Source: a virus. Taken from it: 21,781 nucleotides of DNA. Where the stretch lies: UHGV virus genome UHGV-1963057. One strand, 5' to 3'. Of the stretch, positions 1 through 20,228 are shown in pieces. A program made the translations under genes and the position numbers. Each line of letters opens with the position of its first letter. Within the stretch, counting starts at the first letter, position 1. The notes beneath the pieces were generated by a model. That model was not told the DNA's origin, did no database searches, and saw nothing but the letters and a program-made list of their open reading frames with translations.

Positions 1-189
1 GCGCTATTTAACCAGAAGCTGGCGGAATATCTGGTGCTGTATAACAGCAAAAGACCCCACAAGGCGCTCGCACTAATGACGCCCGTGGAATATATTTTAA
101 AAGAGAATAAAAATTGCAATATGTGGTGGACCCATACAAGCACTTGCTCCTTTTCCGGAGAGGCGCTAACCTTTCACTTGTCAAGGTAA
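1..189 (+). mobile_element. 3'-terminal fragment of a DDE-type (integrase-core-like) transposase gene; 5' part lies outside the window
   Basis: Frame 1 is open from the window edge to TAA at 187-189. Translation ...LVLYNSKRPHKALALMTPVEYILKEN... resembles the conserved C-terminal YNxxRPHxxL...TP motif of integrase-core transposases. Family not determinable by eye. Confidence 0.4.
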
Positions 190-328
190 TGCGGTTAGGG
201 CCTCGGTTAAACAGAGATGTTTTCCGGGGCCTTTCCACATCTGGCCTTCGGGTATTCCCTCCGACCATCAGCCGAAAGGCACCCGCGCGTAATCTATCGC
301 TTTTTTGTTAATCCGGCAATTCTGCCTG

Positions 329-589
329 TTAGTTCTGAGGTAAAGGCAAACTCATCTGATTGTTTCCCCTGTGTGAAGCTGGCAGCTCATGCCACGGGAT
401 ACCTTCTGAAGAGTGAACGGCGGAGGCGTGTTTTGATGTGAATTTATGGAAGGCTTCCAGTGTTGAGAAGCATACGCCGCATTCCAGGTTGTTACACTGG
501 TAATACTTTTGCCGCACGGTGTTTGAATCATTTTCCGGACGACTTGTGCGGATACGGGCAGATGCGCCACAAAGCGGACAACGGAACAT
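329..589 (-). CDS. ogr: Ogr/Delta-family zinc-finger late transcription activator (86 aa)
   Basis: Translation MFRCPLCGASARIRTSRPENDSNTVRQKYYQCNNLECG... has the CxxC-(22)-CxxxxC finger and the N-terminal MF(H/R)CPLC signature of P2 Ogr. ATG at 589 is preceded by GGGAGG with 5-nt spacing. Confidence 0.85.
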   Translation of the reverse strand: MFRCPLCGASARIRTSRPENDSNTVRQKYYQCNNLECGVCFSTLEAFHKFTSKHASAVHSSEGIPWHELPASHRGNNQMSLPLPQN

Positions 590-746
590 AGAGACCTCCC
601 TTAACGTGGTGCTTCTGTTATTTTAAGTTCTACTAGCTCCGATTCCAACTGACTAAACCGCTTTGAGTTGAGGGGCTGACATTCTTATTATTCGCTTATC
701 AAAGAATAGCTAGTCAAACCTGATACATTAAAATCAGCACGTTATT

Positions 747-780
747 TTGATTGTGTGATATCATAACATTATGTTATTAA
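747..780 (+). promoter_or_regulatory. Candidate sigma70-type promoter for the cargo gene (TTGATT, 17 bp spacer, TATGTT) within an AT-rich divergent intergenic region
   Basis: Hexamers read by eye at 747-752 and 770-775, about 45 bp upstream of the ATG at 822. The surrounding 590-821 region is strongly AT-rich. Motif match only. Confidence 0.25.
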
Positions 781-821
781 TGCGTTAAATTGGGATATCT
801 AATTCAGATTGTGAGGTATTT

Positions 822-1991
822 ATGGGAAAGAATAGTCAACGTAGGCGAGATAATAAAATTAAGCGAGAAAATGAGAAAAAAAGAAACTTAGCGGCAAAGA
901 TAAATAAAATGTTGTATATAAAGCCTGATATATTTTTTGATGAATCAGGTAATACTGGCGGAAATTTACTCGATCCATTGCAACCTGTTTTTACCTTAAG
1001 TTCAAGTAGTATTAGTAAACAGGATGCGCTTAAGGCATTAGAACTAACCGGAAGCAAGTCTCCAACAGAAGCCCACTTTAAAACTCTTAGACGTAGAAAA
1101 TCTGGTCAGGATGGCATCATTAGGCTTCTTGAAAGCAAATATGTCAATGAAGAGAATGTTAAAATATACTTGGTCGATAAAAAATACATGCTAACAGCAA
1201 AGATTGTTGATATTTTGATCGAGACGTGGTGCTCTAATAGAGGAATAGATCTTTATATAAATGGACAGAATCTAGCTCTGTCTAATGTTTACTATTTCTG
1301 TTTCCCTGCTTTCTGTGGGGAGGAAAAAACAGAGGTAATGTATCAGTGTTTTATGAATATGATCAGAAGCCAATCGACTGAGTCAATTGATGAATTTTAC
1401 AGGGTAATTGATGAGTTAAAGATATGCTCAAGTGATAAGATATTCACAGATATAATAAACAGAATTAGTATTACCAGAAGCGATATTGATGATATATTGG
1501 AAGGTGTTGAGAAAAGCACATTAGATCCATCTATACCAAGCCTCTTTAGACACTGTGTAGAATGGGGTAAATTATACCCTAATGGTTTTTATATTAAGCA
1601 TGACGATTCCAAAGCTATTACAGAGAAGAAAGATATTTTTGATAAATTTATGGATATATCAAAAATTACGGAGGCATATGGTTATGATCGAAGAAAATTT
1701 GAATTGCCAATTAAAGCTCGTTCTTTGACATTCCATTCATCACAAGAGTATCCTCAATTACAAATTGTAGATATAGTAGCAAGTGCGGCTGCTTATTATG
1801 TTAACTGTCTAAAAAGAAATGACTTAGAAGATTATCTCTTTAAAGAACTTCAAAGAATAAAAATAGATAACTATTTTAAAAATATGGCCATTTGGCCTAC
1901 AACATATGTTACACCTCAAGAATTAGGCACAATTTATACTGGTGGGCGAAACCCTGCAGATGGAGTCGCTGATTATCTTTCTCAATATTAG
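822..1991 (+). CDS. Hypothetical cargo protein, 389 aa, DUF3800-like by motif recollection; Lys/Arg-rich N-terminal tail
   Basis: Long ORF with GAGG 8 nt upstream of the ATG. Visibly AT-rich compared with the flanking phage genes. N-terminal region contains IFFDESGNTG and the C-terminal region QIVDIVASAAAYY, which I recall as the hallmark ends of Pfam DUF3800. Sits between D and ogr on the opposite strand. Confidence 0.8.
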   Translation: MGKNSQRRRDNKIKRENEKKRNLAAKINKMLYIKPDIFFDESGNTGGNLLDPLQPVFTLSSSSISKQDALKALELTGSKSPTEAHFKTLRRRKSGQDGIIRLLESKYVNEENVKIYLVDKKYMLTAKIVDILIETWCSNRGIDLYINGQNLALSNVYYFCFPAFCGEEKTEVMYQCFMNMIRSQSTESIDEFYRVIDELKICSSDKIFTDIINRISITRSDIDDILEGVEKSTLDPSIPSLFRHCVEWGKLYPNGFYIKHDDSKAITEKKDIFDKFMDISKITEAYGYDRRKFELPIKARSLTFHSSQEYPQLQIVDIVASAAAYYVNCLKRNDLEDYLFKELQRIKIDNYFKNMAIWPTTYVTPQELGTIYTGGRNPADGVADYLSQY

Positions 1992-2013
1992 TAACTGGAG
2001 TTTTAATTAATAT

Positions 2014-2034
2014 GGCCGCGTTAGCGGCCTTTCT
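2014..2034. terminator. Short GC hairpin (GGCCGC-gtta-GCGGCC) followed by TTTCT between convergent cargo gene and D
   Basis: 6-bp all-GC stem at 2014-2019 / 2024-2029 with a 4-nt loop and a T-rich tail on the plus strand, lying 23 bp after the cargo gene stop. Confidence 0.4.
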
Positions 2035-2082
2035 AACTATGTTTATTGCTAGTACATATCTGAACTAATACATTTAAGACAT

Positions 2083-3192
2083 TCACGCTGTTTCTGCTAT
2101 CCATTCCGGGATTTTTGCCTCAAGCTCAAGCTGCGTGGTAAAGCCGCTGTTATCAATGGTGTGCTCGGCTTTTGCAATAATCCAGTCCTGATTATCAATC
2201 TCGCTTTTAAATCCTGTTACCGTGCCATGCATTTCGGGGTAGAGTTCTGCACGTCCACGCGCCAGCGTGATGGAAAATGATGCGGCTCCGCGTTGTAGCT
2301 GCTGCCACTTTGCCGCCGCTGCGCGTCTTGCTGCCTGCTCGTTCTGATAAGTCTTGCGTAACACAAACACATTGCCTTCCGCGCCTTCCATATAATCACC
2401 TTCACGGCTGCTGCTTTTCTCCTTTTTGGGTTTTGGCGGTTTGCGGCGTTTCACGCTGACTTTTTTCTTTTTCCCGTAATTAAGATCAAGCCAGTAAGCG
2501 CGTACCCCCGTATACGCCTCGCGGTCAGCAATGCGGAACTGATGGCGATCGCCGCTGCTGCGTGTGATGGCGAACGATGGCAACGGCTGGCCCTGTGCGT
2601 TCACGCCACCACCTGGCATGATGAATAACAGATTGCCGCTTTTTACCGTGGTGATTGCGCCCAGCATTTCCGCCATGCGCGTAAGGAAGGACATATCGCT
2701 TTCTTCGGTCTGGTCGGCGTGGTCGATTTCGATATCCATCAGCATTTCGCTGATTTGCGGTTTCAGACCATACCGATGAGCGATGGCGGATACCACACGC
2801 TCAACGGTCACATCATGCCAGGACACCTCACGTTTAACGTTAAATTCATCCCGAAAATCTGCGCTTCTGGCTGAAACAGTCAGCCTGTCCGGCGGTCCTT
2901 CGTGAGCGATTTCATCAACAATGTAAGTGCCTTTTTCTGTCAGCGGTTCTCCTTTCCAGCCAATGAGAACCGTCAGGCGCGCGCCCCGTGGCGGTAGCTG
3001 CAACTGACCATCCGCATCATCCAGCGTGATGGTGAGCTGGTCCGCGTCAAATCCCCGGTTGTCGGTCAGTGACAGGCTCATCAGGCGCTCTGCCACGCCT
3101 GACAGCGTTTTACCCTCCGCGAGAATATCAAAATCCGGCATTTTCACGGGGTCTGTGCCCTGACTGAGCAATTGCATGGTGGTATCGGTCAT
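2083..3192 (-). CDS. D: Tail protein D (late control gene D family)
   Basis: Translation matches the P2 gpD family over its length. Start chosen at ATG 3192 (MTDTTMQLL...), preceded by GGGAGGG with 5-nt spacing; the six-frame ORF extends further upstream to 3324 without an RBS. Confidence 0.88.
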   Translation of the reverse strand: MTDTTMQLLSQGTDPVKMPDFDILAEGKTLSGVAERLMSLSLTDNRGFDADQLTITLDDADGQLQLPPRGARLTVLIGWKGEPLTEKGTYIVDEIAHEGPPDRLTVSARSADFRDEFNVKREVSWHDVTVERVVSAIAHRYGLKPQISEMLMDIEIDHADQTEESDMSFLTRMAEMLGAITTVKSGNLLFIMPGGGVNAQGQPLPSFAITRSSGDRHQFRIADREAYTGVRAYWLDLNYGKKKKVSVKRRKPPKPKKEKSSSREGDYMEGAEGNVFVLRKTYQNEQAARRAAAAKWQQLQRGAASFSITLARGRAELYPEMHGTVTGFKSEIDNQDWIIAKAEHTIDNSGFTTQLELEAKIPEWIAETA

Positions 3193-3349
3193 CTGTTCCC
3201 TCCCTGTGCGGCATGGTCGCATGTGCGTGCGGAGGGGGTTACTGCTTTTTGTTGTCGCCGGATCGGGAGAACGGCACAGGGGTGAGATTACGCGCGTGGT
3301 GGGTGATGATTGTTGCCGAATCATTTAACGGATACAAGGGGCTAAAGCT

Positions 3350-4534
3350 ATGAGTGAAACTCGTTTTCATGGTGCCCGTGTTACGGAAAATACCGACCTG
3401 GTAACAGCGATTAACGATGTTGATTCCAGCGTTATCGGTATCGTGGCAACGGCGGATGATGCGGACGCGAAGCTGTTCCCGCTGAACAAGCCCACACTGC
3501 TGACCCGCGTCAATGACGTGCTGGGAAAATGCGGGACAACGGGGACGCTTTATCGTGCGCTTAAGGCCATCGCAGACCAGGTGAGCACAAAGGTGATCGT
3601 CGTTCGCGTGGCTGAACACAAAGAAGAAGACGGAAAGACGCAGGATCAACTGGTTATCGGTGGTTCTGAATCTGACGGCAGCTATACGGGGATGTATGCG
3701 CTGCTTGTTGCAGAGCAGGATGAAAGCATCGGATACCGTCCGCGTATTCTGGCCGCGCCGGAGCTGGACACGGAGGCGGTGACAAAATCCCTGTGCGTGA
3801 TTGCGGGTAAACTGCGCGCGTTTGTGTATGCCTCATGTCACGGCTGTAACACGATGGCTGAGGTGATTACCTACCGCCAGAAATTCAACGAACGTGAGGT
3901 GATGCTCTTATGGCCGGACTTCATCGCCTACAACCCGAAAAGTGGCAAAAACGAAACGTTCCCCGCGCCTGCCTATGCGTGCGGCCTTCGTGCGTACATT
4001 GACCATGAGCAGGGATGGCACAAATCACTGTCCAACGTTCCGGTTAAAAATGTGCTGGGGATGTCCAGGCATGTGTTCTGGTCGTTGCAGGCCGAAGACA
4101 GCGATGCCAACAGCCTCAACAACAAAGAAATCACGACCATTATTCGTCGCAACGGGTTCCGCTTCTGGGGCAACCGCACACCGGAAACGAACGCCTACAT
4201 CTTTGAGGTGTATACCCGAACCGCACAGGTGCTGGCTGATTCAATTGCGGAAGCGCAGTTTGAAACCATCGACAGTCCACTGACGCCTGCGAACGTGAAA
4301 GATGTTATCAGTGCCATCAGGGCAAAACTGGATTCACTGGTTACTGCCGGGAAACTGATTGGGGCGTCGTGCTGGTATGACGTGGTGGATAACGGCACCA
4401 CGAATTTACGTCAGGGGCGTGTGCGTATTCGCTACAAATATACGCCTGTTCCCCCGCTGGAAGACATGGAGCTTTACCAGTCGTTTACTGATGAATTCTT
4501 TGGTCCCGCATTTGCGGTGCTGGGAGGTGCCTGA
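3350..4534 (+). CDS. FI: Contractile tail sheath protein FI
   Basis: 394 aa; conserved sheath blocks LFPLNKP, GWHKSLSNV, IRRNGFRFWGNRT, YTRTAQV and YKYTPVPPLE match P2 FI as recalled. AAGGGG lies 8 nt upstream of the ATG. Confidence 0.95.
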   Translation: MSETRFHGARVTENTDLVTAINDVDSSVIGIVATADDADAKLFPLNKPTLLTRVNDVLGKCGTTGTLYRALKAIADQVSTKVIVVRVAEHKEEDGKTQDQLVIGGSESDGSYTGMYALLVAEQDESIGYRPRILAAPELDTEAVTKSLCVIAGKLRAFVYASCHGCNTMAEVITYRQKFNEREVMLLWPDFIAYNPKSGKNETFPAPAYACGLRAYIDHEQGWHKSLSNVPVKNVLGMSRHVFWSLQAEDSDANSLNNKEITTIIRRNGFRFWGNRTPETNAYIFEVYTRTAQVLADSIAEAQFETIDSPLTPANVKDVISAIRAKLDSLVTAGKLIGASCWYDVVDNGTTNLRQGRVRIRYKYTPVPPLEDMELYQSFTDEFFGPAFAVLGGA

Positions 4535-5046
4535 TGGCTGTACCAAAACATCTTCGCTTTTTTACGCTGTTTGTGGATGGTGAAAACGAAGTGGGTAAGG
4601 TGACGTCCGTCACTCTGCCTAAGCTGACGCGCAAAACCGACAGCTACCGGGGTGGTGGCATGATGGGTGCGGTAAGTATTGATCTCGGTCTGGACGACTC
4701 CGCGCTTGATGCGAGCTTTGTCATGGGGGGCGCAGTTCGTGAGCTGTTCCTTAAGTATGGCGGCACGATTGACGGCACGCTGCTGCGTTTTGCGGGTGAA
4801 TACTACACCGATGCAGAAAGCGATCTGTATGAAATCGAGATGCGCGGACGTGTGACGGAAATTGATATGGGGGAAGCCAAACAGGGCGAAGCCACATCAC
4901 ACACTTACGCCATTAAAAACACCTACTACAAGCTGAGTGTTAACGATCGCCCGTTGTGGGAGATTGACCTGCTGAACTTCATTTACCGGAAGGACGGCAA
5001 GGACATTGTGCCCGATCGCATCCGTTCCGCGCTTGGGCTTGGCTGA
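4534..5046 (+). CDS. FII: Tail tube protein FII
   Basis: 170 aa ORF immediately after the sheath gene; its ATG overlaps the FI stop (TGATG). Size and position are those of P2 FII. Confidence 0.9.
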   Translation: MAVPKHLRFFTLFVDGENEVGKVTSVTLPKLTRKTDSYRGGGMMGAVSIDLGLDDSALDASFVMGGAVRELFLKYGGTIDGTLLRFAGEYYTDAESDLYEIEMRGRVTEIDMGEAKQGEATSHTYAIKNTYYKLSVNDRPLWEIDLLNFIYRKDGKDIVPDRIRSALGLG

Positions 5047-5100
5047 TAAGTAATATGCAGGCGGCGCAGTGCGCCGCCTCTGACTGAAAGGAGTTTCCTG

Positions 5101-5466
5101 ATGAAAGAGACGAAAAACATCGATACCGAAAACACGGTAGTTGCTGACACTGTGAAAGAAACCAGTGAGCGTGGCGTAAAACTTACCCAACCAATTGAGC
5201 GAGGCGGCGAAAAAATCACGTATGTGGAGATCACCGGGGCTATTGAGCAGGCTGGATCTCTGCGAGATTTGTCGCTGTCTGATGTGCTGAATCTGAAAGC
5301 GGAATCCATGTTTACGCTGCTGTCACGCGTGACATCACCGCGACTGGATGAAGTGACGATCAAAAAAATGGCATCCCGTGACTTTATTCAGTTATGTGTG
5401 GTTGCCGTAAATTTTTTGAGCGGTGCGGACTCTGGCGGGAAGAACGAACAGGCGACGGAAGCCTGA
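5101..5466 (+). CDS. E: Tail assembly chaperone E (zero-frame product)
   Basis: 121 aa acidic ORF between the tube and tape-measure genes; contains the TTTTTTG slippery heptamer at 5412-5418. Confidence 0.85.
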   Translation: MKETKNIDTENTVVADTVKETSERGVKLTQPIERGGEKITYVEITGAIEQAGSLRDLSLSDVLNLKAESMFTLLSRVTSPRLDEVTIKKMASRDFIQLCVVAVNFLSGADSGGKNEQATEA

Positions 5467-5630
5467 TCACGGTTGTGTGCTTTGAGCACATAGAAGACTT
5501 TGTGGCAGATATTGCCGTTATTTTTAACTGGTCGCCCGCCGAAATCTTCATGATGACGCCCGGCGAAGTGGTTAGCTGGCGTGAGCGGGCGGCACTTCGC
5601 AGCGGGAATGCAGACAATGAAGACTCTTGA
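5101..5630 (+). CDS. E': E+E' fusion product made by programmed -1 frameshift at 5412-5418
   Basis: After slippage at T TTT TTG the -1 frame continues as FFERCGLWREE...NWSPAEIFMMTPGEVVSWRERA... to TGA at 5628-5630, overlapping the start of T. Same heptamer and arrangement as P2 E/E'. Confidence 0.75.
5412..5418 (+). other. -1 ribosomal frameshift slippery site TTTTTTG
   Basis: Heptamer is in the E frame as T-TTT-TTG, with an open -1 frame downstream that encodes the conserved E' extension. Confidence 0.75.
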
Positions 5631-8430
5631 TATCCGGGTCGCTTTCAGCGCCGTTGACAGGCTGACCCGACCTGCAGAAAACGCACGCCGCCTGATGGGG
5701 CAGTTTGGTGACTCCATCCAGCGAACGCAGGGGGCGATCAAAAATCTCGAGCGTCAGGCGCGTTCATTTGAGCGCGCCCGCGACGCTGTCAGTAAAGCGG
5801 ATGCGGGTATCGTGAAAGCACGACGCCAGCTTAACGCCCTTAATCAGTTACAACGCACGGGTACAGTGCTCAGCGAAAAACAACAAAAGCTGATGCAGCA
5901 GTTAAGCACCCGGCTTGAACGCCTGAATGAATCGCGCACACGGGAGATTCAGAAAATGCGGGAGCTTGGCGGAGAGCTGAAACGCCACGGCATTTCCCTG
6001 ACAGGCAGCGATAACACCATCCAGCAGGCCATCAGACGCACCGAACAGTACAACAACCAGCTTGAACGCGAACGGCAGGCGCTTGCGCGTGTAACGCGGG
6101 CGCGTGAGCGGTATTCGCGCGCGCAGGAAACCGCGGGAAAACTGAAAACAGGTGGTGCACTGGCAACAGGTGCGGCAGCGGCGGGCGGCTATGCTGCCGG
6201 GCGTTTTTTGCAGCCCGCGATTGGGTTCGGGAAAGAGATGTCCCGCGTTCAGGCACTGACGCGAATCGACAAAAACAGCCCACAGTTTAAGGCGCTGCGT
6301 GAGCAGGCGTTAAAACTTGGCTCTGAAACGCAGTTCACCGCTGGAGATGCCGCCAGTGGACAGGCATTTCTTGCAATGGCTGGTTTTACTCCGCAGGCCA
6401 TTCAGGCTGCGCTTCCCGGCGTGCTGAGCATGGCAACGGCTGGCGGTATGGATCTCGGCGAGACGGCGGATATTGGCTCAAATATCCTGACGCAGTTCGG
6501 CCTCTCTGCTGACCAGATGGACCGGGTTGGCGACACGCTTACAGCGGCGTTTACCCGTACCAACACTGACCTTCGCGCGCTGGGCGAAACCATGAAATAT
6601 GCAGGTCCGGTGGCGGGTAAGCTGGGAATATCGCTGGAGCAGGCCGCTGCGATGGCGGGCGTGCTGGCGAATATGGGCATCAGAGGGAGTGATGCCGGGA
6701 CGGCAATGCGTGCCAGCCTGGCTCGTCTGGCATCACCGCCAAAGGCGGCAGCAGAGGCGCTGAAAGAGCTGGGTGTGGCTGTCTCTGACGCGAACGGCAA
6801 AATGCGCCCGATGGAGGATGTACTGGCCGACCTTTATAAAGCCACCCGCAAATACGGGGAAGTTGACCGGGTATCGTTCTTTAAGGACATTGCCGGAGAA
6901 GAGGCTTTCACATCGTTTATGGCGCTCGTTGATGCAGCGGGTGACGGCTCCTTACCCAAACTGAGAAAAGAACTTGAAGGCGCGCGCGGTGAGGCTGAAC
7001 GCACAGCAAAGGTTATGGCCAACAACCTTGACGGCGATCTGAAATCACTCGGCAGTGCATGGGAAGGGTTGCGCATCCGCATTGCAGATCTGATTGACGG
7101 TCCGCTGCGTTCTGTCACGCAGTGGCTCACGCGGGTGGTATCAAAGGTGACGGCGCTGGCGCAGGCCCATCCGGCACTGACGCGCCAGCTACTGATTGCA
7201 GGTGGGGCATTGCTGGCGATGACTGCAACGGTCGGCTCGTTGTCGTTGGCTATTGGTGTGCTTGCTGGCCCGCTGGCAAAACTGCGTCTTGGCTTTTCCC
7301 TCCTGACCGGATCAATGAATGCTGTCAGGCTCCTGCCAGCACTATGGGGAATGGTGACGGGTTCCGTTTCGTTACTGGGGGGCGCTATCGGGGCGCTGTT
7401 CAGCCCGGTCGGATTGATTGCTGCTGCGTTTGTGGCTGCGGCGGTTCTCATCTGGAAATACTGGGAACCCATCAAGGCGTTTTATGCAGGGGTGTTCAGT
7501 GGGATTATGGAACGGCTGGCTCCGTTGCGCGAAACCTTTGAACGGTTCGGTCCAGTTTTTGATGTCGTGCGCGATGGGATTATTCAGGTCTTTAACTGGT
7601 TTAAATCGCTGCTGTCACCGATGGAGTCCAGCAAGGAAACGCTGGATAAATGTACCAGTGCTGGCGAGGTATTCGGCAGGGTACTCGGTGGAGCGATAGA
7701 GCTTGTCCTGACGCCAACAAAAGCATTGATGGATTCACTGGCGTGGATACTTGAAAAGCTCGGAGTGCTTCCGGATGAAGCGGAACGGGCGAGAAAGAAA
7801 ATAGAGAACGCTTCAAAGGCTCCTGTAATGTGGGAATGGGATCCGGTTCTCAAGAAAATGGTTCAGAAACCATGGACTCCCGGCCCGGCCCCGTCAGATA
7901 AGGTCGACGACAAAAAAGGCGATAAACCCAGAGACAACAAACCGCTCACAGACAACAATACCGGTACGCTACGCAGACTCAGCAAAATTGCTGATAACAC
8001 AGGTAAGCTGGTTGATGAGACGAAAAAACGCATTGGCCCCGGCGATATTGTCTTTAAGAACCTGCCCCGCGCACTTGCTGTTCGTGGGGAGTGGCAGGAG
8101 CGGAAGATTGCGCAGGTCAGTAAGCCTGCCCCCGCAATTACTATCACACCCGTGGTTCCGGCTCCGCTGCCTCCGGCGCTGGTCCCTGTTGTTGCGGCCA
8201 GCTCCCGCCCGGTGGCGGAGGCTATACGATCGCCAGTGGCATCAGTTCCTGCAACTTCCCGTAACCGGGAGCCTGTTGCCTCCGGATTTGGCGGTGAAAT
8301 TCATGTTCATCTGCATAACGTTGTTACACAGAATCCCCGCGAACTGGCGAAACTGATTGGCGAAATGGTCAGGGCAGAAATGGAACGGCGCGCCCGTGCC
8401 GGGCGTGGCAGTTTTTACGATAAAGATTGA
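5608..8430 (+). CDS. T: Tail tape measure protein T (start at ATG 5608 or 5617)
   Basis: About 940 aa with a coiled-coil-like N-terminal part, a central hydrophobic Gly/Ala-rich segment and a Pro-rich C-terminal region; position after E/E'. The listed ORF begins at GTG 5581; first in-frame ATGs are 5608 and 5617. Confidence 0.9.
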   Translation: MQTMKTLDIRVAFSAVDRLTRPAENARRLMGQFGDSIQRTQGAIKNLERQARSFERARDAVSKADAGIVKARRQLNALNQLQRTGTVLSEKQQKLMQQLSTRLERLNESRTREIQKMRELGGELKRHGISLTGSDNTIQQAIRRTEQYNNQLERERQALARVTRARERYSRAQETAGKLKTGGALATGAAAAGGYAAGRFLQPAIGFGKEMSRVQALTRIDKNSPQFKALREQALKLGSETQFTAGDAASGQAFLAMAGFTPQAIQAALPGVLSMATAGGMDLGETADIGSNILTQFGLSADQMDRVGDTLTAAFTRTNTDLRALGETMKYAGPVAGKLGISLEQAAAMAGVLANMGIRGSDAGTAMRASLARLASPPKAAAEALKELGVAVSDANGKMRPMEDVLADLYKATRKYGEVDRVSFFKDIAGEEAFTSFMALVDAAGDGSLPKLRKELEGARGEAERTAKVMANNLDGDLKSLGSAWEGLRIRIADLIDGPLRSVTQWLTRVVSKVTALAQAHPALTRQLLIAGGALLAMTATVGSLSLAIGVLAGPLAKLRLGFSLLTGSMNAVRLLPALWGMVTGSVSLLGGAIGALFSPVGLIAAAFVAAAVLIWKYWEPIKAFYAGVFSGIMERLAPLRETFERFGPVFDVVRDGIIQVFNWFKSLLSPMESSKETLDKCTSAGEVFGRVLGGAIELVLTPTKALMDSLAWILEKLGVLPDEAERARKKIENASKAPVMWEWDPVLKKMVQKPWTPGPAPSDKVDDKKGDKPRDNKPLTDNNTGTLRRLSKIADNTGKLVDETKKRIGPGDIVFKNLPRALAVRGEWQERKIAQVSKPAPAITITPVVPAPLPPALVPVVAASSRPVAEAIRSPVASVPATSRNREPVASGFGGEIHVHLHNVVTQNPRELAKLIGEMVRAEMERRARAGRGSFYDKD

Positions 8431-8436
8431 GGAGTC

Positions 8437-8931
8437 ATGGCCATGATGATGATCTACGGCATGTTTGTTTTTGAGCTGCGCACATTGCCGCATCAGCAGT
8501 TACAGCAAAACAAAAGCTGGCGGCATGTGAAAAATGAACGCGTTAACCGTTCAGCAAGCTGGCAGTATATCGGCGCAGGTGATGATCGCATCGTGCTTTC
8601 CGGCGTGCTTTATCCTGAAATTACAGGTGGCGAAGTGTCGCTTTCGTTGCTGACCACGCAGGCATATACAGGACGCCCCTGGCCTCTGATTGATGGTGTC
8701 GGGCAGATTTACGGCATGTATGTACTGACTGAAACGAATACGACCCGTTCCGAGTTTGATCGCTACGGTAAGGCGAAAAAGATAGAATTTTCACTGACTC
8801 TTGAACGCTGTGATGAGGATTTGCGGGAGCGCCTGCAATCCTCATCGTTCAGTGATATGCTGTCCGGCTTCAAAGATAAGGTCACATCATCCCTTAACAG
8901 CGCGGCCAGCTCCGTTAAAGGGCTGTTTTGA
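8437..8931 (+). CDS. U: Tail protein U (start may be ATG 8443 or 8446)
   Basis: 164 aa; FVFELRTLPHQ...WRH...GAGDD...PWPLIDG pattern matches the P2 gpU family. GGAG at 8431-8434 is best spaced for the ATG at 8443. Confidence 0.88.
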   Translation: MAMMMIYGMFVFELRTLPHQQLQQNKSWRHVKNERVNRSASWQYIGAGDDRIVLSGVLYPEITGGEVSLSLLTTQAYTGRPWPLIDGVGQIYGMYVLTETNTTRSEFDRYGKAKKIEFSLTLERCDEDLRERLQSSSFSDMLSGFKDKVTSSLNSAASSVKGLF

Positions 8932-8938
8932 TTAACGC

Positions 8939-8974
8939 AAAACCGCTAATGGTCAGATTAGCGGTTTTTATTTT
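8939..8974. terminator. Bidirectional rho-independent terminator between convergent U and invertase genes
   Basis: Perfect 10-bp stem AACCGCTAAT (8941-8950) / ATTAGCGGTT (8957-8966), extendable to 12 bp with the AA/TT pairs at 8939-8940 and 8967-8968; loop GGTCAG; T-rich run on the plus strand and AAAA on its 5' side. Confidence 0.7.
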
Positions 8975-9557
8975 CCTGAGTCTGCCTGGTTGTTTCTTCA
9001 GCCTGTATATCGCCTACAGGGTGATAACGATAAATCGTCGATATGCCGATGTCGTAAATGATCGCCAGTTGTTTCCTGTCATGACCGTTTTTAATCAGCC
9101 TCGCTATTTGCTCGTGTTGTTCTTTTGTCAACTTCGGGCGACGTCCGCCAATGCGTCCTTGTGCGCGTGCTGCTGCCAGCCCGGCCAGTGTACGCTCTAC
9201 AATTAATTCACGTTCCATTTCGGCTAAAGCCCCCATGACGTGAAAAAAGAAACGCCCCATGGGTGTTGATGTGTCAATGCTGTCCGTCAGACTACGGAAA
9301 TTAACACCTTTTTCCCGCAATTCCTCAATAAGCGTGATCAGGTGTTTCATACTTCTGCCCAGTCTGTCCAGCTTCCAGACAACCAGCGTATCTCCTTCTG
9401 ATAGCGTTCTGAGCAGTTTTTTCAATCCCGGTCTGGCTGATTTCGTTCCGCTGATTTTATCTTCAAAAATCAGTTCACATCCTGCGCAGTTCAGTGCATT
9501 GCGTTGTAAATCCGTGTTCTGGTCATTTGTTGACACACGAATATAGCCAATTTGCAT
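8958..9557 (-). CDS. Serine recombinase, Hin/Gin/Cin/Pin-family DNA invertase
   Basis: 199 aa. MQIGYIRVSTNDQNTDLQRNAL...GDTLVVWKLDRLGRS...MGRFFFHVMGALAEMERELIVERT...GRIGGRRPKLT... is near-identical in pattern to Hin/Gin, including the catalytic Ser in RVST and a C-terminal HTH. Confidence 0.95.
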   Translation of the reverse strand: MQIGYIRVSTNDQNTDLQRNALNCAGCELIFEDKISGTKSARPGLKKLLRTLSEGDTLVVWKLDRLGRSMKHLITLIEELREKGVNFRSLTDSIDTSTPMGRFFFHVMGALAEMERELIVERTLAGLAAARAQGRIGGRRPKLTKEQHEQIARLIKNGHDRKQLAIIYDIGISTIYRYHPVGDIQAEETTRQTQENKNR

Positions 9558-9612
9558 AAAAAAACATCCTCTTTGTTTCGTGAAAAATACAGAGTTGGTA
9601 TAGGTAGGGATA

Positions 9613-9638
9613 AAAACGAAAACGTTGGTTTAGGAGAA
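9613..9638. other. Invertase crossover site (hix/gix-like 26-bp site), invertase-proximal
   Basis: AAAACGAAAACG-TT-GGTTTAGGAGAA; the right half fits the GGTTTnnGAnAA half-site and the central dinucleotide falls in the shared GLGE codons. Lies 56 bp from the invertase start. Confidence 0.7.
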
Positions 9639-10127
9639 GCGGCGAAAAGGGATGTGGGCACGACAGTCGGAACCGTTGCCGCTGGTGATGATTTACGCAT
9701 AATAGGAGCACTTCAAAAGGCAAATAATCTTTATGAGTTAACAAATAAATCTGACGCAAGAGCTAATCTTGGGTTAGGAACCGTTGCAACAAAAAACGTG
9801 GGAAATAGTGCTGGGCAAATACCTGATATGTCTTACTGGTCTTCACCGGCAGGCGGAATTAATTTCCCGAATGGGTTCCAGATGCGATTCGGGACTATCG
9901 CTGGTACTGGTGGAAAATTATTTTCTACGCCATTTACAAATCAGTGCTATGGCATTGTTTTCGGACAAACATATGGAGCCAACTACTGGATGTTCAGCCC
10001 GATGTACAGAGCATCTGATCTGAGTAATACCAGTTTTGCATTCATTAACAAAACCTGGTCTGGCGTTCCGGGGGTAGGTTCTCAGGACGCTGGTGAATCA
10101 GTTTTTTATATTGCAGTAGGGTATTAA
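9627..10127 (+). CDS. Silent alternative tail-fibre C-terminal cassette (Hv'), expressed only after inversion
   Basis: Open frame from the crossover core to TAA 10125-10127. Joining at the core fuses in frame to the H constant region (...DYLGLGE|AAKRDVG...). The listed ORF start at 9552 lies outside the segment and is not a real start. Confidence 0.75.
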   Translation, partial: GLGEAAKRDVGTTVGTVAAGDDLRIIGALQKANNLYELTNKSDARANLGLGTVATKNVGNSAGQIPDMSYWSSPAGGINFPNGFQMRFGTIAGTGGKLFSTPFTNQCYGIVFGQTYGANYWMFSPMYRASDLSNTSFAFINKTWSGVPGVGSQDAGESVFYIAVGY

Positions 10128-10128
10128 T

Positions 10129-10572
10129 ATGGAAATGGTTTATAGCGCCTCAAAAAATAGTTTTTTCGCTAAAAATGATGTGGCGAAATATGAACAGGCC
10201 GGATGGGAACTTGCTGATGTTGTCGAAGTGACATATGACACTTACCTGGAATTTATTGAAGACAGAACGTTGCAAGGGAAAGTACGCATCGCGGGTGATG
10301 ATGGCCTTCCCACCTGGGGGGAAATTCCACCGCCAACTCATGAGGAACAAATTGCTGCAGCCGAACTGGAAAAGCAGCAATTGATTAATCAGGTCAACGA
10401 ATACATATACAGTAAGCAATGGCCTGGTAAAGCGGCGATTGGTCGCCTGAAAGGTGAGGAACTGGCGCAATATAATTTGTGGCTGGATTATCTGGACGCA
10501 CTGGAACTGGTCGATACTTCCGGTGCGCCAGATATTGAATGGCCTACGCCTCCGGCAGTTCAGGCCAGATGA
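10129..10572 (+). CDS. Tail fibre assembly protein (alternative, paired with Hv')
   Basis: 147 aa starting 1 nt after the Hv' stop; the C-terminal ...DYLDALELVDTSGAPDIEWPTPP mirrors the C-terminus of the minus-strand assembly protein. 3' end overlaps its convergent partner. Confidence 0.8.
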   Translation: MEMVYSASKNSFFAKNDVAKYEQAGWELADVVEVTYDTYLEFIEDRTLQGKVRIAGDDGLPTWGEIPPPTHEEQIAAAELEKQQLINQVNEYIYSKQWPGKAAIGRLKGEELAQYNLWLDYLDALELVDTSGAPDIEWPTPPAVQAR

Positions 10573-11137
10573 CGTCCGGCGCTGTGCTGGTATCTGTTGC
10601 CGTCACCGCGTCAATATAATCCAGCACAGCGTTAAGTCGGGTGTTTTCTGGCTGCGTCAGCTTCCGCCCGGCCTGTAATTTCAGTTGAATCAGACTGATG
10701 GAAGCCATTGCAGCATCAATCAGCGACTGGCGCTGTGCTTCTGCAGCTTCTACTGCGGCGCTATGCTGTGCCTCGGTATCCGTCACCCATTTCTCACCAT
10801 CCCATTTATCGTATGGCGTTAACGGTGAAAGCGTGACATAACCGTCTTTGATGGCACCGATATAATCCACTGTAACAGCTGCGCCATTTTCAGTTGAGTA
10901 AACGGTCTCATTGCGATGGTCTTCTTCATGGCTCCATCCCTTACCCGTAAATACTGCCACTCTTCCCGGAATGTATTCGCCCGGGTCAATACCAGTGGAA
11001 CAAACGGGCATACTTACGCCAGTATTAATATATTCATCAGACCAGCCCGTATATTCAGACGTTACTGCATCATAATAATAACAACGCATATCACCCGGCA
11101 CTGTAGCCAGCCCATTTTCATCAAAAACAGGTTTCAT
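10544..11137 (-). CDS. G: Tail fibre assembly protein G (currently expressed orientation)
   Basis: 197 aa; start overlaps the H stop; C-terminal ...LDYIDAVTATDTSTAPDVIWPELP is typical of fibre assembly chaperones. Confidence 0.85.
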   Translation of the reverse strand: MKPVFDENGLATVPGDMRCYYYDAVTSEYTGWSDEYINTGVSMPVCSTGIDPGEYIPGRVAVFTGKGWSHEEDHRNETVYSTENGAAVTVDYIGAIKDGYVTLSPLTPYDKWDGEKWVTDTEAQHSAAVEAAEAQRQSLIDAAMASISLIQLKLQAGRKLTQPENTRLNAVLDYIDAVTATDTSTAPDVIWPELPEA

Positions 11138-12735
11138 TATGCAGCCCTCACAATATAATTAAAGGCGATGTTACGTGGACGGTTTTCATTAGCTGTTGGC
11201 ACGACACGAGAGGCGTCGAATCCAAGGTCATCGGTTTTGCCTATATCAGTTGTGTTATTCGGCATTCTCGCAGATCGTGTTCCTGCATCATAAAAAGCCC
11301 CTCTGATTGCATCAAAAGACATACCGATCCCGCCATCTGCGAATCCCTCAATATTTCTTATTGCATCCCCCTGTGAAGATAATAATTGTCGCCCGGCATC
11401 CACACCACGTCCGTCATCCCAGCCACGAATAAATTCACCGCGTAAATCCGGCAATTTATTTGTCGGATAAACCTTTGCCAGTTCCGGGTATTCTTCAGCA
11501 GAAAAAGCCGCACCGTTGCATTTCAGCCAGCCAGTAGGCGGTGTGGCTGAAGGCCACGGAACAGGCACACCAACGGGTAATGCCGAACCTTCTCCCAAAC
11601 CAAGGTAATCAAGAACTCCCTGAGTGCTGGTTTTACCAAGAATGGCACGTCCAACACTTGTCAACGCGGTTAACGCGGCACGATCTGCCCCTGTAAAATA
11701 TGGGAGTTTATCTGCTGATGTAGCAAGCTCCGCCAGCGCCGTCAGGGTGGCATCCTTCGGTTGCTTACCCGCAAGCGCGTTAGTCATGGTGGTCGCAAAA
11801 TTCGGGTCATTGCCCAGCGCTGCAGCCAGTTCGTTCAGCGTGTTCAGTGCATCAGGTGACGAATCTACAAGTGCGGCAATCGCAGCCATAACGAAAGCCG
11901 TGCTTGCGATCTGGGTACTATTAGTCCCCTGTGGCGCTGTTGGTGTTGTTGGCGTTCCGGTCAGTGCCGGGCTGTTTAATGGTGCTTTCTTGTTCGTTTC
12001 ATCCATTACCGCCTTAACAGCTTTTGGTGTCGCTGCCAGCGTTTCAGACGTGCTGTTCGTGGCGCTACTGAGCTGAACAATCCCTTTTTGTGTAGTGGTG
12101 GCGTTCTGGGCGGTATATTTCCCGTTAGCCAGGTCATATGCAGCCTTAACCGCTTTCGGTGTTGCGGCCAGTGTTTCTGATTCACTGTTAATTGCACTGC
12201 TTAACTGAGTAAAACCTTTTACGGTCAGCGAGGCGTCCGGGTGACGTCGTGACTGTTCGTGTTCTGATATTTTATCATCCACATATTTGCGGGTTGCCAG
12301 AACCACAGACGGGTCGATTTTCAGCGTGATGGCTTCGGTGTTCGTGACAACCAGAATCATGCGGATAGTCTGGGTGCGTCCACTGCCTTCCTGCAACTGC
12401 GGTTTGTACGTTTCCGGGCAGTTTGCCACCGCAATGAGTGCACCTTCATCATCATAAAGACCAATCTCACGGATCCAGAATCCTCCCTCGTTTTCAGGGA
12501 TGATTTGCTCCGCAATAATCTGGCTCTGATTGTTAGGGTCAACACTCAGAAGATTCAGCGGTGCAATGCGTTTCTGGTTAATCAGTTTTGTTTGTGCAGG
12601 GTCTGGTGTTGGTAACACACCATTTGCATCACCAACGGCCATTTGCGTCAGATTCAGCTTACTGCCGAGCATCGTCGCGTTAGCCAGTCGTGCTGCGCCC
12701 TGATTAGTCAGAATGGCGTAGTATTTCACTGTCAT
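11137..12735 (-). CDS. H: Tail fibre protein H (constant N-terminal region fused to the current variable C-terminus)
   Basis: 532 aa; N-terminus MTVKYYAILTNQGAARLANA... and repeated TPKAVKA motifs are typical of P2/Mu/P1-type fibres. Crossover site lies near codon 377. ATG overlaps the stop of I. Confidence 0.9.
   Translation of the reverse strand: MTVKYYAILTNQGAARLANATMLGSKLNLTQMAVGDANGVLPTPDPAQTKLINQKRIAPLNLLSVDPNNQSQIIAEQIIPENEGGFWIREIGLYDDEGALIAVANCPETYKPQLQEGSGRTQTIRMILVVTNTEAITLKIDPSVVLATRKYVDDKISEHEQSRRHPDASLTVKGFTQLSSAINSESETLAATPKAVKAAYDLANGKYTAQNATTTQKGIVQLSSATNSTSETLAATPKAVKAVMDETNKKAPLNSPALTGTPTTPTAPQGTNSTQIASTAFVMAAIAALVDSSPDALNTLNELAAALGNDPNFATTMTNALAGKQPKDATLTALAELATSADKLPYFTGADRAALTALTSVGRAILGKTSTQGVLDYLGLGEGSALPVGVPVPWPSATPPTGWLKCNGAAFSAEEYPELAKVYPTNKLPDLRGEFIRGWDDGRGVDAGRQLLSSQGDAIRNIEGFADGGIGMSFDAIRGAFYDAGTRSARMPNNTTDIGKTDDLGFDASRVVPTANENRPRNIAFNYIVRAA
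11590..11615. other. Invertase crossover site inside H (distal site)
   Basis: TTCTCCCAAACC-AA-GGTAATCAAGAA; the left half fits the TTnTCnnAAACC half-site exactly. It is the inverted counterpart of the 9613-9638 site, matching it at 13 of 14 positions across the conserved half-site and core. Confidence 0.7.
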
Positions 12736-14229: not shown

Positions 14230-14232
14230 GAT

Positions 14233-17507: not shown

Positions 17508-17509
17508 TG

Positions 17510-18204: not shown

Positions 18205-18306
18205 GGGGTTCACTCCTGAAAAAAATCGGGCGGTGGGTGCGCGGTGTAAACGGTCACGGAGTCAAACCGGAACACCGCGCACGCCGCCCGCTGACGGGGT
18301 CAGTCG

Positions 18307-20205: not shown

Positions 20206-20228
20206 AAAAAATTTGCTCCTTTGTCTTA

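What the first reader, a model, noticed from the sequence alone, without database searches (positions are those of the whole stretch)
822..1991. AT-rich cargo gene (389 aa, DUF3800-like) inserted between tail gene D and ogr
In P2 and its relatives ogr follows D directly. Here about 1.5 kb (590-2082) lies between them and holds a single opposite-strand gene with visibly lower GC than every flanking phage gene, its own Shine-Dalgarno and promoter-like hexamers, and a hairpin after its stop. The protein has a 30-residue Lys/Arg-rich N-terminal tail, then IFFDESGNTG and a C-terminal QIVDIVASAAAYY, which I recall as the conserved ends of the uncharacterised DUF3800 family. Prophage morons like this are often superinfection-exclusion or anti-phage genes. 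As far as I recall, the D-ogr junction is not one of the two described P2 cargo hotspots (Z/fun between G and FI; tin/old).
Basis: partly seen in the sequence, partly recalled or inferred. Interest (0 to 1): 0.75.

Follow-up and report, generated by a model that had tools for sequence, protein, structure and literature searches.

The report
Prophage cargo gene: DUF3800 nuclease
A foreign, AT-rich gene for an uncharacterised RNase H-like enzyme sits in a swappable cargo slot of a common E. coli prophage (also in the 2011 O104:H4 outbreak strain); it is most likely an untested single-gene anti-phage defence.

Summary
ORF 822-1991 (+, 389 aa) lies between ogr (329-589, -) and tail gene D (2083-, -). 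Its GC is 33%, against 54% for the rest of the window. It passes Pfam's DUF3800 threshold and has both family motifs.

The phage is P88-like (Xuanwuvirus), not P2 proper. In phage P88 ogr abuts D, so 631-2082 is an insert. The slot is a real cargo hotspot. Of 1202 E. coli genomes carrying the junction, 720 have it empty. The rest hold alternative cargo (PIN, DUF2971/PDC-S31, PRTase-like, HEPN-like, SEC-C, ParA-like). DUF3800 is in 36 genomes, all at least 99.9% identical.

Homologues sit beside restriction-modification, McrBC and Hachiman genes and a Septu-like ATPase+HNH pair. One sits in the validated P2 gpA-portal hotspot.

No partner gene, reverse transcriptase or ncRNA was found. Best reading: a standalone defence nuclease. 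This is plausible but untested.

The parts
329..589 (-). ogr (late-gene activator); conserved left anchor of the cargo slot
   Evidence: Pfam Ogr_Delta E=4.7e-14; annotated ogr/Delta-like in RefSeq genomes
620..648 (-). Promoter-like site upstream of ogr (TTGGAA-17-TAAAAT). It lies partly in the linker shared by occupied slots. IS5/ISKpn26 splits it at CTAG 633-636 in O104:H4 outbreak genomes.
   Evidence: Consensus scan; junction alignment; blastn of the O104:H4 locus. The promoter role is inferred.
631..2082 (.). The inserted cargo segment relative to the empty P88-type ogr|D junction (1452 bp, 33% GC)
   Evidence: Blastn: P88 matches window 300-630 and 2083-3400 with 1 nt between them; GC values
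672..2032 (+). Self-contained cassette shared at 80% DNA identity with Klebsiella chromosomal islands: upstream region, gene and terminator hairpin
   Evidence: Blastn against L005-L009; alignments A2 and A3
747..781 (+). Conserved promoter-like block (TTGATT-17-TATGTT, or TGnTATTAA) upstream of the gene
   Evidence: Conserved between the window and two Klebsiella loci; read from the sequence. Below the scan's 9/12 threshold, so tentative.
813..816 (+). Shine-Dalgarno GAGG, 5 nt before the ATG at 822
   Evidence: Read from the sequence
822..1991 (+). DUF3800 gene, 389 aa, 45 kDa (RefSeq WP_000517778.1; PHROG 12991)
   Evidence: ORF; Pfam PF12686 at 41.2 bits; PHROG 12991 E=7e-187; dN/dS 0.08 against Klebsiella
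822..926 (+). aa 1-35: Arg/Lys-rich N-terminal helix (13 K/R, pI 11.1), found only in this subclade
   Evidence: AF2 helix 3-32; composition; only about 3 of the listed 50%-identity clusters match from profile position 1
927..1178 (+). aa 36-119: first half of the RNase H-like core (strands b1-b3), with invariant D40 E41 on b1 (DESGNTG)
1179..1574 (+). aa 120-251: all-helical insertion domain. Its first helix carries K120, D130 and E134.
   Evidence: AF2 helices 120-251; invariant K120 and E134. The 149-position Pfam model spans 289 residues of the protein.
1575..1814 (+). aa 252-331: second half of the core (b4 with H260-D261-D262-S263; helix 311-331 with Q314 and D317, the QxxD motif)
   Evidence: AF2; conservation
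1815..1988 (+). aa 332-389: conserved C-terminal tail (W358 P359 T360 .. G374 G375 N377), modelled with low confidence
   Evidence: pLDDT below 50 for 362-389; conservation
2014..2029 (.). GC hairpin GGCCGC-GTTA-GCGGCC. Likely terminator of the cargo gene; on the minus strand it also scores as a terminator after D.
   Evidence: conserved in Klebsiella
2083..3324 (-). Tail gene D (baseplate hub); conserved right anchor of the slot. The likely true start is near 3183-3192.
   Evidence: Pfam Phage_GPD E=4.2e-17; annotated lengths of 366-369 aa in P88 and RefSeq

Best explanation
The segment 631-2082 is a horizontally acquired, one-gene accessory cassette with its own promoter region and terminator. 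It sits in a variable cargo slot between ogr and D of a P88-like (Xuanwuvirus) prophage.

Its product is a cytoplasmic 45-kDa DUF3800 protein. It has a metal-dependent nuclease core of the RNase H2/HIII-like fold, with an apparently intact active site (D40, E41, E134, D261, D317). A helical domain is inserted into the core, an Arg/Lys-rich helix precedes it, and a conserved C-terminal tail follows it.

I propose that the lysogen expresses it from its own promoter and that it works alone as an anti-phage (superinfection-exclusion or abortive-infection) nuclease. The basic helix would hold a nucleic-acid duplex. The core would cut RNA-DNA hybrids or other replication or transcription intermediates of an incoming phage. 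The helical insertion and C-terminal tail would keep it off host nucleic acid until infection.

Shown: gene structure, foreign origin, hotspot location, family membership, fold, conserved acidic residues, purifying selection, defence-type neighbourhoods.

Inferred: nuclease activity, substrate, gating, and the defence phenotype itself.
For: Foreign cargo:
- GC is 33% against 54% for the rest of the window.
- The junction is empty in P88.
- The cassette is in 36 of 5426 complete E. coli genomes, at least 99.9% identical, always at one place.
- The gene is AT-rich (33-40% GC) in hosts of 41-63% GC.

Hotspot:
- 720 of 1202 carrier genomes have the junction empty.
- Others hold PIN_4, DUF2971 (PADLOC PDC-S31, E=5e-27), a PRTase-like protein hitting PsyrT, SEC-C and ParA-like genes, and a weak HEPN-like gene.

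Family and fold:
- Pfam DUF3800 is above its cutoff.
- The AF2 model has pLDDT 81 and pTM 0.79.
- D40, E41, K120, E134, D317 are invariant and D130, D261, Q314 nearly so across 40 relatives at 25-47% identity.
- dN/dS is 0.08.

Context of homologues:
- Klebsiella: tmRNA island with BrxC/D-like, helicase and AAA_15+HNH genes.
- K. michiganensis: beside McrBC.
- Aeromonas: between a TIR_2 protein and HamA+helicase.
- V. cholerae: beside a type I restriction-modification system.
- Metagenomic contig (source organism unknown): near a TIR/SEFIR gene.
- A 41%-identical relative lies between gpA/methylase and the portal gene of a P2-like prophage. That is the experimentally validated P2 defence hotspot (PMC9122126).
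- A distant DUF3800 lies in the Z/fun hotspot of phage 899.

Standalone: neighbours differ in all 9 contexts with DNA; no reverse transcriptase was seen; no Rfam ncRNA reached threshold.

Literature: DUF3800 is the predicted nuclease effector of type VII retrons (PMC7736814) and an accessory of Cas12a2/a3 and VI-F CRISPR loci (PMC10910872; PMC12669027).
Against: - There is no experimental phenotype for this or any standalone DUF3800 in the searched literature.
- No PADLOC model matches and no NCBIfam model matches.
- The RNase H relationship is at fold level only: hhalign against E. coli RnhB gives 0.3% probability, the PDB sequence search gives nothing, and Foldseek against the PDB is not significant.
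- I could not inspect model coordinates, so clustering of the conserved acids into one site is inferred from their positions on secondary-structure elements.
- Three of the contexts (Pseudomonas, Serratia, Yersinia) show islands or mobile elements without clear defence neighbours.
- In Rousset's P2 hotspot table another DUF3800 travels with partition-like genes (StbA + Plasmid_stab_B), not obviously defence genes.
- The promoter evidence is weak.
Confidence: 0.55

Rival explanations
1. Counter-defence or inter-element weapon that serves the phage. An RNase H-like enzyme could destroy RNA-DNA hybrid immune molecules of the host or of rival elements (for example retron msDNA), or attack satellites such as P4, without protecting the cell.
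For: The gene is on a phage. The fold is RNase H2/HIII-like. DUF3800 is linked to retrons, whose msDNA is an RNA-DNA molecule. It sits next to ogr, the activator that P4 exploits (established P2/P4 biology).
Against: Close homologues are mostly in chromosomal islands beside restriction-modification, McrBC, Hachiman and TIR genes rather than in phage early regions. The gene has its own promoter-like block and terminator and reads against the late genes, which fits expression in the lysogen. Known DUF3800 links are to the defence side, as a retron effector and a CRISPR accessory.
Confidence: 0.12
2. A toxin or addiction-type nuclease, or a general stress nuclease, kept because it stabilises the prophage end (as the neighbouring hok/sok does) or benefits the host in some way unrelated to phages.
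For: It lies within 1 kb of a hok/sok locus at the prophage end. It is a single nuclease-like gene with no identifiable regulator. Another DUF3800 co-travels with plasmid-stability genes in a P2 hotspot.
Against: No antitoxin-like partner was seen in any of 9 contexts. The slot is empty in 60% of carrier genomes, so the prophage is maintained without cargo there. The neighbours are typical of defence islands.
Confidence: 0.12
3. A selfish mobile gene: an RNase H-fold (DDE-type) transposase or an insertion-sequence-like element that inserted itself between D and ogr.
For: It is a 1.45-kb unit with one ORF of RNase H-like fold. It is found in many unrelated genomic contexts and is AT-rich.
Against: There are no terminal inverted repeats and no target duplication at 631/2082 or 672/2032. 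There is exactly one copy per genome, always at the same site, in 36 genomes. Other unrelated genes occupy the same slot with the same flanking linkers, which points to cassette exchange by recombination in the flanks. No transposase family matched in Pfam.
Confidence: 0.04
4. A decaying passenger gene with no current function.
For: It has low GC and no known function, and it is dispensable for the phage.
Against: The 389-codon ORF is intact. dN/dS is 0.08 against the 85%-identical Klebsiella orthologues. There are 68 invariant columns across 32 homologues, and the full-length family has 421 clusters at E<=1e-30.
Confidence: 0.03

Closest known systems
Type VII retron effector (DUF3800 protein, subtype VII-A2, or DUF3800 fused to the reverse transcriptase, VII-A1; Mestre et al. 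2020, PMC7736814)
   Same: Same Pfam family (PF12686). It has the N-terminal DE motif, is predicted to be RNase H2-like, and occurs in a defence context.
   Different: There is no reverse transcriptase or msr/msd RNA here or near 9 homologues. This protein keeps the Q of QxxD, which the paper says retron-linked members lack. It is larger, with a 130-aa helical insertion, a basic N-terminal helix and a conserved C-terminal tail.
TPR-DUF3800 accessory proteins of Cas12a2/Cas12a3 and VI-F CRISPR loci (PMC10910872; PMC12669027; preprint 10.64898/2026.01.16.699850)
   Same: The DUF3800 domain is described there as an RNase H fold 'with a catalytic rearrangement' and is linked to immunity.
   Different: No TPR domain, no CRISPR array and no cas genes are present. 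The gene is standalone.
Type 2 RNase H (RNase HII/H2A, RNase HIII)
   Different: There is no detectable sequence homology. A helical domain splits the core. Conserved E134 on the first helix and D317 in a QxxD helix differ from the RNase HII layout. The gene is not a housekeeping gene.
P2-family cargo hotspots (old/tin between gpA and portal; Z/fun between G and FI; Rousset 2022, PMC9122126)
   Same: The logic is the same: a short, high-turnover locus between two conserved phage genes, holding AT-rich genes with their own promoters, many of them defence genes. Relatives of this very family occupy the gpA-portal hotspot, and a distant DUF3800 occupies Z/fun.
   Different: The position differs (ogr|D) and the phage lineage differs (P88-like, Xuanwuvirus). 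In the searched papers I found this slot described only in general terms.
PHROG 12991 / RefSeq WP_000517778.1 'DUF3800 domain-containing protein'
   Same: It is this protein family (E=7e-187; identical RefSeq protein).
   Different: Both entries are labels without a function. The PHROG profile starts at residue 33, so it omits the basic N-terminal helix.

Membership tests
DUF3800 (Pfam PF12686) | Score above Pfam's gathering threshold | tested here: met
   41.2 bits against a cutoff of 21, E=3.5e-10, aa 37-325 on profile positions 2-148 of 149
DUF3800 (Pfam PF12686) | N-terminal DE motif and C-terminal QxxD motif, as quoted in PMC7736814 | tested here: met
   D40-E41 and Q314-I-V-D317. D40, E41 and D317 are invariant and Q314 nearly invariant in 40 relatives.
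Type 2 RNase H (RNase HII/HIII) | Sequence membership (Pfam RNase_HII or profile similarity) | tested here: not met
   No Pfam hit; hhalign against E. coli RnhB gives 0.3% probability; no PDB sequence hit at E<=10
Type 2 RNase H (RNase HII/HIII) | RNase H-like fold | tested here: met
Type 2 RNase H (RNase HII/HIII) | Four carboxylates forming one metal site; cleavage of RNA-DNA hybrids | not testable with these tools
   Conserved acids lie on b1, the first helix, the end of b4 and the last core helix. Model coordinates could not be inspected and activity needs biochemistry.
Type VII retron | Adjacent or fused retron reverse transcriptase | tested here: not met
   The slot holds one gene. No RVT family appears among the neighbours in 9 homologue contexts.
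Type VII retron | msr/msd non-coding RNA next to the genes | tested here: not met
   No Rfam match except a sok-like element outside the cassette. The upstream region is not unusually structured (z=+0.76).
DUF3800-associated ncRNA systems (Weinberg 2017, DUF3800-I to -XI) | One of the curated DUF3800 RNA motifs near the gene | tested here: not met
   Rfam 15 holds at least DUF3800-I and DUF3800-IX. None was found in the window (E<=5) or in 11 homologue loci at the gathering score.
Anti-phage defence system (operational definition) | Lies in a high-turnover hotspot of a mobile element together with alternative defence-type cargo | tested here: met
   Empty in 720 of 1202 carrier genomes; at least 9 alternative cargos, including PDC-S31, PIN, a PsyrT-like PRTase and a HEPN-like gene
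Anti-phage defence system (operational definition) | Homologues enriched next to known defence genes | tested here: met
   6 of the 9 contexts with DNA: a Septu-like ATPase+HNH pair with BrxC/D-like genes, McrBC, Hachiman plus TIR, type I restriction-modification, TIR/SEFIR, and the P2 gpA-portal hotspot. The sample is small, with no statistical background.
Anti-phage defence system (operational definition) | Match to a catalogued defence model | tested here: not met
   PADLOC-DB v2: no family at E<=1
Anti-phage defence system (operational definition) | Reduces phage plating when expressed | not testable with these tools
   Needs experiment. No report was found in the searched library.
Insertion sequence / DDE transposon | Terminal inverted repeats, target duplication, multiple copies | tested here: not met
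   No terminal inverted repeats at the cassette ends. One copy per genome at one site in 36 genomes.
Toxin-antitoxin module | Conserved adjacent partner gene | tested here: not met
   No second ORF of 40 aa or more in the intergenic parts of the cassette. Neighbours differ in every context.

The most novel reading that the evidence does not exclude
The standalone ~360-390-aa DUF3800 proteins are a widespread, self-sufficient family of immune nucleases (1729 clusters at 50% identity). Their core has been borrowed as the effector of type VII retrons and as an accessory of class 2 CRISPR systems. This E. coli copy would bind its nucleic-acid target through an arginine-rich N-terminal helix rather than through a partner ncRNA. 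If so, it is the first genetically tractable model for what DUF3800 enzymes cut. In addition, ogr|D would be an unexploited third defence hotspot present in about a fifth of E. coli genomes.
Probability: 0.4. Interest if true: 0.65.

Novelty: new variant of a known kind. Interest (0 to 1): 0.47.

Why it matters
DUF3800 is a large family with no known function. It turns up wherever bacterial immunity is studied: as the type VII retron effector, as an accessory of Cas12a2/a3 and VI-F loci, and next to eleven unrelated ncRNA motifs. No substrate or phenotype is known.

This copy is a one-gene version with its own promoter region and terminator, in E. coli, on a prophage found in clinical lineages including the 2011 O104:H4 outbreak strain. 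That makes the question directly testable with standard phage panels and point mutants.

Separately, the ogr|D junction of P88-like prophages is a compact hotspot bounded by two anchor genes. About 1200-1450 of 5426 complete E. coli genomes carry the junction, and it is not empty in about 40% of carriers. Its cargo is mostly uncharacterised (PIN, HEPN-like, DUF2971/PDC-S31, PRTase-like, SEC-C, ParA-like). It could be mined in the same way as the gpA-portal hotspot of P2.

If the gene has no anti-phage effect, that would also be useful. It would warn against reading every hotspot gene as a defence gene.

Tried and rejected
- **PADLOC and NCBIfam scans of the protein:** nothing found.
- **Residue mapping onto RNase HII:** profile alignment to genuine E. 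coli RnhB, fetched from MG1655, gave 0.3% probability. I therefore could not map catalytic residues by sequence and rejected RNase HII family membership.
- **Associated ncRNA:** an Rfam E-value scan of 1-3400 and gathering-score scans of 11 homologue loci found no DUF3800 motif or retron RNA. Folding of the 5' region gave z=+0.76. Rejected for this subfamily.
- **Insertion-sequence hypothesis:** no terminal repeats and single copy. Rejected.
- **Conserved partner gene:** none in 9 contexts. Rejected.
- **Promoter scan:** too many hits in AT-rich DNA to be informative.
- **Literature:** 18 papers mention DUF3800, none with a standalone phenotype. The supplements of Vassallo 2022 and the 2026 P2/P4 preprint do not list it. 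Rousset's supplement lists a different DUF3800 with StbA/Plasmid_stab_B.
- **Invertible tail-fibre segment:** a search for crossover repeats at seed 10 found nothing convincing.
Full report

Yes. The six-frame ORF list shows a 389-codon ATG-initiated ORF at 822..1991 on the + strand. To its left is a minus-strand ORF at 329..589, which is Ogr/Delta (Pfam E=4.7e-14). To its right is a minus-strand ORF at 2083..3324, which is tail protein D (Phage_GPD, E=4.2e-17).

GC falls to 0.31-0.36 between about 600 and 2100 and is 0.50-0.58 on either side. Computed directly, the insert is 33.3% GC against 54.3% for 2083-21781. GC3 is 0.26 for the gene against 0.58 for D.

GAGG lies 5 nt before the ATG (read). 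A six-pair GC hairpin (2014-2029) followed by TTTCT lies 23 nt after the stop codon. The first 35 residues contain 13 Lys/Arg (pI 11.1). The protein passes Pfam's DUF3800 threshold (41.2 bits against 21; E=3.5e-10) and carries the DE and QxxD motifs.

Promoter-like hexamers are the weakest part of the observation, because AT-rich DNA gives many (13 against 6.9 +/- 2.8 in shuffles). However, a block at about 747-781 is conserved with homologous cassettes in Klebsiella.

**2. What phage is this, and is the gene an insert?**

The flanks match P88-like phages (Peduoviridae, genus Xuanwuvirus) at 95-98% identity, not P2 itself. In this lineage D is transcribed divergently from the sheath-tube-tape-measure operon (3350 onward, +). 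The D(-)/FI(+) arrangement in the window is therefore normal.

In phage P88 the sequence matching window 300-630 is followed after one base by the sequence matching 2083-3400. The insert is therefore 631-2082. That it holds for P2 rests on my own knowledge of the P2 map.

**3. The slot is a hotspot.**

A probe made of the two flanks joined as in the empty site matched 1202 of 5426 complete E. coli genomes. In 720 of them it matched as one uninterrupted 501-503-bp stretch, meaning the junction is empty.

An evenly spaced sample of the matches to window 300-3400 showed the following cargo in the remainder: PIN-domain, DUF2971, YecA/SEC-C, ComF-family plus a hypothetical protein, ParA-family, several different hypothetical proteins, and IS1.

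I fetched five of these loci and scanned them:
- DUF2971 is PADLOC's defence candidate PDC-S31 (E=5e-27).
- The ComF-like protein hits the PRTase part of PsyrT (E=1e-7).
- One cargo is a 500-aa PIN_4 protein.
- One carries a SEC-C motif.
- One is a ParA-like ATPase.
- The 340-aa cargo of phage 500465-2 has a sub-threshold HEPN match.

Occupied slots share a linker of about 40 nt on the ogr side (631 to about 668) and about 20 nt on the D side. This fits cassette exchange by recombination in conserved flanks.

The DUF3800 cassette is in 36 genomes, at least 99.9% identical, one copy each, always here. That points to one acquisition spread with the prophage. It is not in any deposited phage genome at high identity.

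**4. The cassette is a self-contained unit.**

Klebsiella chromosomal loci share 80% DNA identity with window 672-2032, and only with that stretch. It comprises 150 nt upstream, the gene and the hairpin. Neighbours on both sides differ. No ORF of 40 aa or more lies in the non-coding parts. There are no terminal inverted repeats. It is therefore a one-gene module, not an insertion sequence and not a two-gene toxin-antitoxin pair.

**5. The protein.**

Full-length homologues (389-400 aa) occur in Klebsiella, Citrobacter, Serratia, Proteus and Yersinia at 70-86% identity. They also occur in Pseudomonas, Aeromonas, Vibrio, Shewanella and Halomonas at 42-51%.

An exhaustive profile search of 1.84 billion cluster representatives found 1729 clusters at E<=1e-3 and 421 at E<=1e-30. 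Most listed relatives are 355-370 aa and begin at profile position about 35. Only about three listed clusters carry the basic N-terminal extension. In the clade that has the extension its start is conserved (M1, N4, S5, R9), so the upstream ATG is the real start.

dN/dS against the 85%-identical Klebsiella orthologues is 0.08. The gene is AT-rich (33-40% GC) in every host sampled, including a Pseudomonas locus of 63% GC.

AlphaFold2 with a 32-sequence alignment gave pLDDT 81 and pTM 0.79. The model has these elements:
- helix 3-32;
- strands 36-41, 56-62 and 113-119;
- an all-helical block at 120-251;
- strand 256-260, further strands at 283-304, and helix 311-331;
- a tail (362-389) with pLDDT below 50.

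The relationship is not visible in sequence. Pfam shows only DUF3800. The PDB sequence search gave nothing. hhalign against E. coli RnhB gave 0.3% probability. Foldseek against the PDB was not significant.

In 40 relatives at 25-47% identity the invariant residues are D40, E41, K120, E134, W248, D317 and P359. Nearly invariant are G43, T45, G46, Q54, P55, E83, D130, N150, N155, D261, S263 and Q314. The acids fall on strand 1 (D40, E41), the helix after strand 3 (D130, E134), the end of strand 4 (D261) and the last core helix (D317). These are the four places where RNase H-fold enzymes carry their catalytic carboxylates (established knowledge of the fold).

I infer an intact metal-dependent nuclease site, but I could not inspect coordinates to confirm that these residues cluster. 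The C-terminal tail is conserved (W358-P359-T360, G374-G375, N377) yet modelled with low confidence. This suggests it binds a partner or folds back on the enzyme. That remains unexplained.

**6. Context of homologues.**

Nine contexts with DNA were read.
- Klebsiella: a tmRNA-site island holding BrxC/D-like, DEAD-helicase, AAA_15/21 ATPase plus HNH, then DUF3800, then an integrase.
- K. michiganensis: directly after McrB-McrC, before a GIY-YIG protein.
- Aeromonas: an integrase island with a TIR_2 protein, DUF3800, then HamA plus helicase (Hachiman).
- V. cholerae: next to a type I restriction-modification system.
- A metagenomic contig: near a SEFIR/TIR_2 gene and an MqsA-like gene.
- A P2-like prophage: a 364-aa relative (41% identity, E=4.5e-135) lies between gpA plus a DNA methylase and the portal gene. 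This is the hotspot shown experimentally to hold anti-phage systems (PMC9122126).
- Yersinia (Tn3/plasmid-like, with an FRG-domain protein), Serratia (a mobile island with RadC and YfjT) and Pseudomonas (a small island of unknown genes) are accessory contexts without clear defence neighbours.

A more distant DUF3800 (26 bits, above the cutoff) lies in the Z/fun hotspot of the P2-like Escherichia phage 899. Rousset's supplementary table lists another DUF3800, flanked by StbA and Plasmid_stab_B, in the P2 hotspot. No reverse transcriptase, CRISPR array or Rfam ncRNA accompanies any of the close homologues, and Rfam 15 does hold DUF3800 motifs.

**7. Most likely mechanism.**

The lysogen expresses a 45-kDa cytoplasmic RNase H-fold nuclease from the cassette's own promoter. 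The gene reads against the late genes and is followed by its own terminator. I propose that it acts alone against incoming phages. The basic helix would bind duplex nucleic acid. The core would cut RNA-DNA hybrids or other phage replication or transcription intermediates. Alternatively, once activated, it could cut indiscriminately (abortive infection). The helical insertion and C-terminal tail would gate activity.

- Shown: structure of the locus, foreign origin, hotspot, family, fold, conserved acids, purifying selection, defence-type neighbourhoods.
- Inferred: catalysis, substrate, trigger, phenotype.

I put the defence reading at 0.55. The rivals are as follows.
- A counter-defence or inter-element weapon (0.12).
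- An addiction or stress nuclease (0.12).
- A selfish transposase-like gene (0.04). This is contradicted by the single copy and the lack of terminal repeats.
- A decaying passenger (0.03). This is contradicted by dN/dS of 0.08.

The remainder is left for functions not considered.

**8. Comparison with what is known.**

The protein is a member of DUF3800 (threshold and both motifs met). It is not a type VII retron (no reverse transcriptase, no msr/msd RNA), not a CRISPR accessory (no TPR, no cas genes) and not an RNase HII family member by sequence. It shares only the fold. It is already labelled in RefSeq (WP_000517778.1) and in PHROGs (12991, 'unknown function'), so the gene itself is not a discovery.

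What I did not find described is:
- a standalone DUF3800 with a phenotype;
- the ogr|D junction of P88-like phages as a named hotspot.

[quoted passage not shown] I therefore class it as a new variant of a known kind, namely prophage-hotspot nuclease cargo.

**9. Verdict.**

The finding is real but not very surprising to a specialist, because prophage hotspots full of candidate defence genes are now familiar.

Its value is practical. It offers a compact, testable E. coli model for a puzzling enzyme family, and a hotspot present in roughly a fifth of E. coli genomes. Interest: 0.47.

Noticed in passing
window 1-284: The window starts inside the 3' end of an IS481-family transposase gene (1-189, +; ...YNSKRPHKALALMTPVEY...). 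In other genomes a Hok/Gef gene lies at this position, and similarity to those genomes begins only at about 136. The IS has therefore replaced or truncated hok of the prophage-end hok/sok locus. A sok/hok-leader-like RNA remains at 133-284 (-) (Rfam RF01794, 48.9 bits, below the gathering score of 59, E=3.7e-9).
   Followed up: partly
window 633-636 (L014 1838-3032 in O104:H4 str. 2011C-3493): In the 2011 O104:H4 outbreak-lineage genomes an IS5-like ISKpn26 is inserted at CTAG 633-636. This lies between the -10 and -35 of the promoter-like site upstream of ogr, 185 nt upstream of the DUF3800 start codon. The 2009 O104:H4 isolates lack it. It may cripple late-gene activation of the prophage while leaving the cargo gene's own upstream block intact.
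   Followed up: partly
window 631-668 and 2061-2082: Occupied ogr|D slots with unrelated cargo share short linker sequences next to both anchor genes. The empty P88-type junction lacks them. The left linker contains the ogr -35-like hexamer. The empty state may therefore be a deletion rather than the ancestral form.
   Followed up: partly
window 8958-11137: A serine recombinase (resolvase/invertase, 8958-9557, -) lies next to a 191-aa ORF with no Pfam hit (9552-10127, +) and two oppositely oriented tail-fibre assembly genes (10129-10572 +, 10544-11137 -), downstream of tail-fibre gene 11137-12735 (-). This looks like an invertible host-range segment. No clear crossover repeats were found with a 10-nt seed.
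   Followed up: partly
window 2083-3324: The D ORF is uninterrupted (413 codons to the farthest start). Even so, NCBI's PGAP annotation pipeline splits it in many genomes into a 266-aa 'VgrG/Pvc8 family' protein plus a pseudogene fragment, while other records call a 366-369-aa D protein. This is an annotation inconsistency, not a sequence defect.
   Followed up: no
window 763-777: A perfect 15-nt palindrome, ATAACATTATGTTAT, overlaps the promoter-like block upstream of the DUF3800 gene. It is not conserved in the Klebsiella cassettes, so it is probably not an operator.
   Followed up: partly
window 1893-1988 (aa 358-389 of the DUF3800 protein): The C-terminal tail is strongly conserved (P359 is invariant down to 25% identity), but residues 362-389 are modelled with pLDDT below 50. 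It is a candidate partner-binding or autoinhibitory peptide.
   Followed up: no
L034 6001-7095; L024 3483-4529: Members of the same DUF3800 family occupy both classical P2 hotspots in other prophages. A 364-aa relative lies between gpA/methylase and the portal gene (L034). A distant 348-aa DUF3800, next to a 461-aa protein with a weak AHJR-like nuclease match, lies between the tail-fibre assembly and sheath genes of Escherichia phage 899 (L024).
   Followed up: partly
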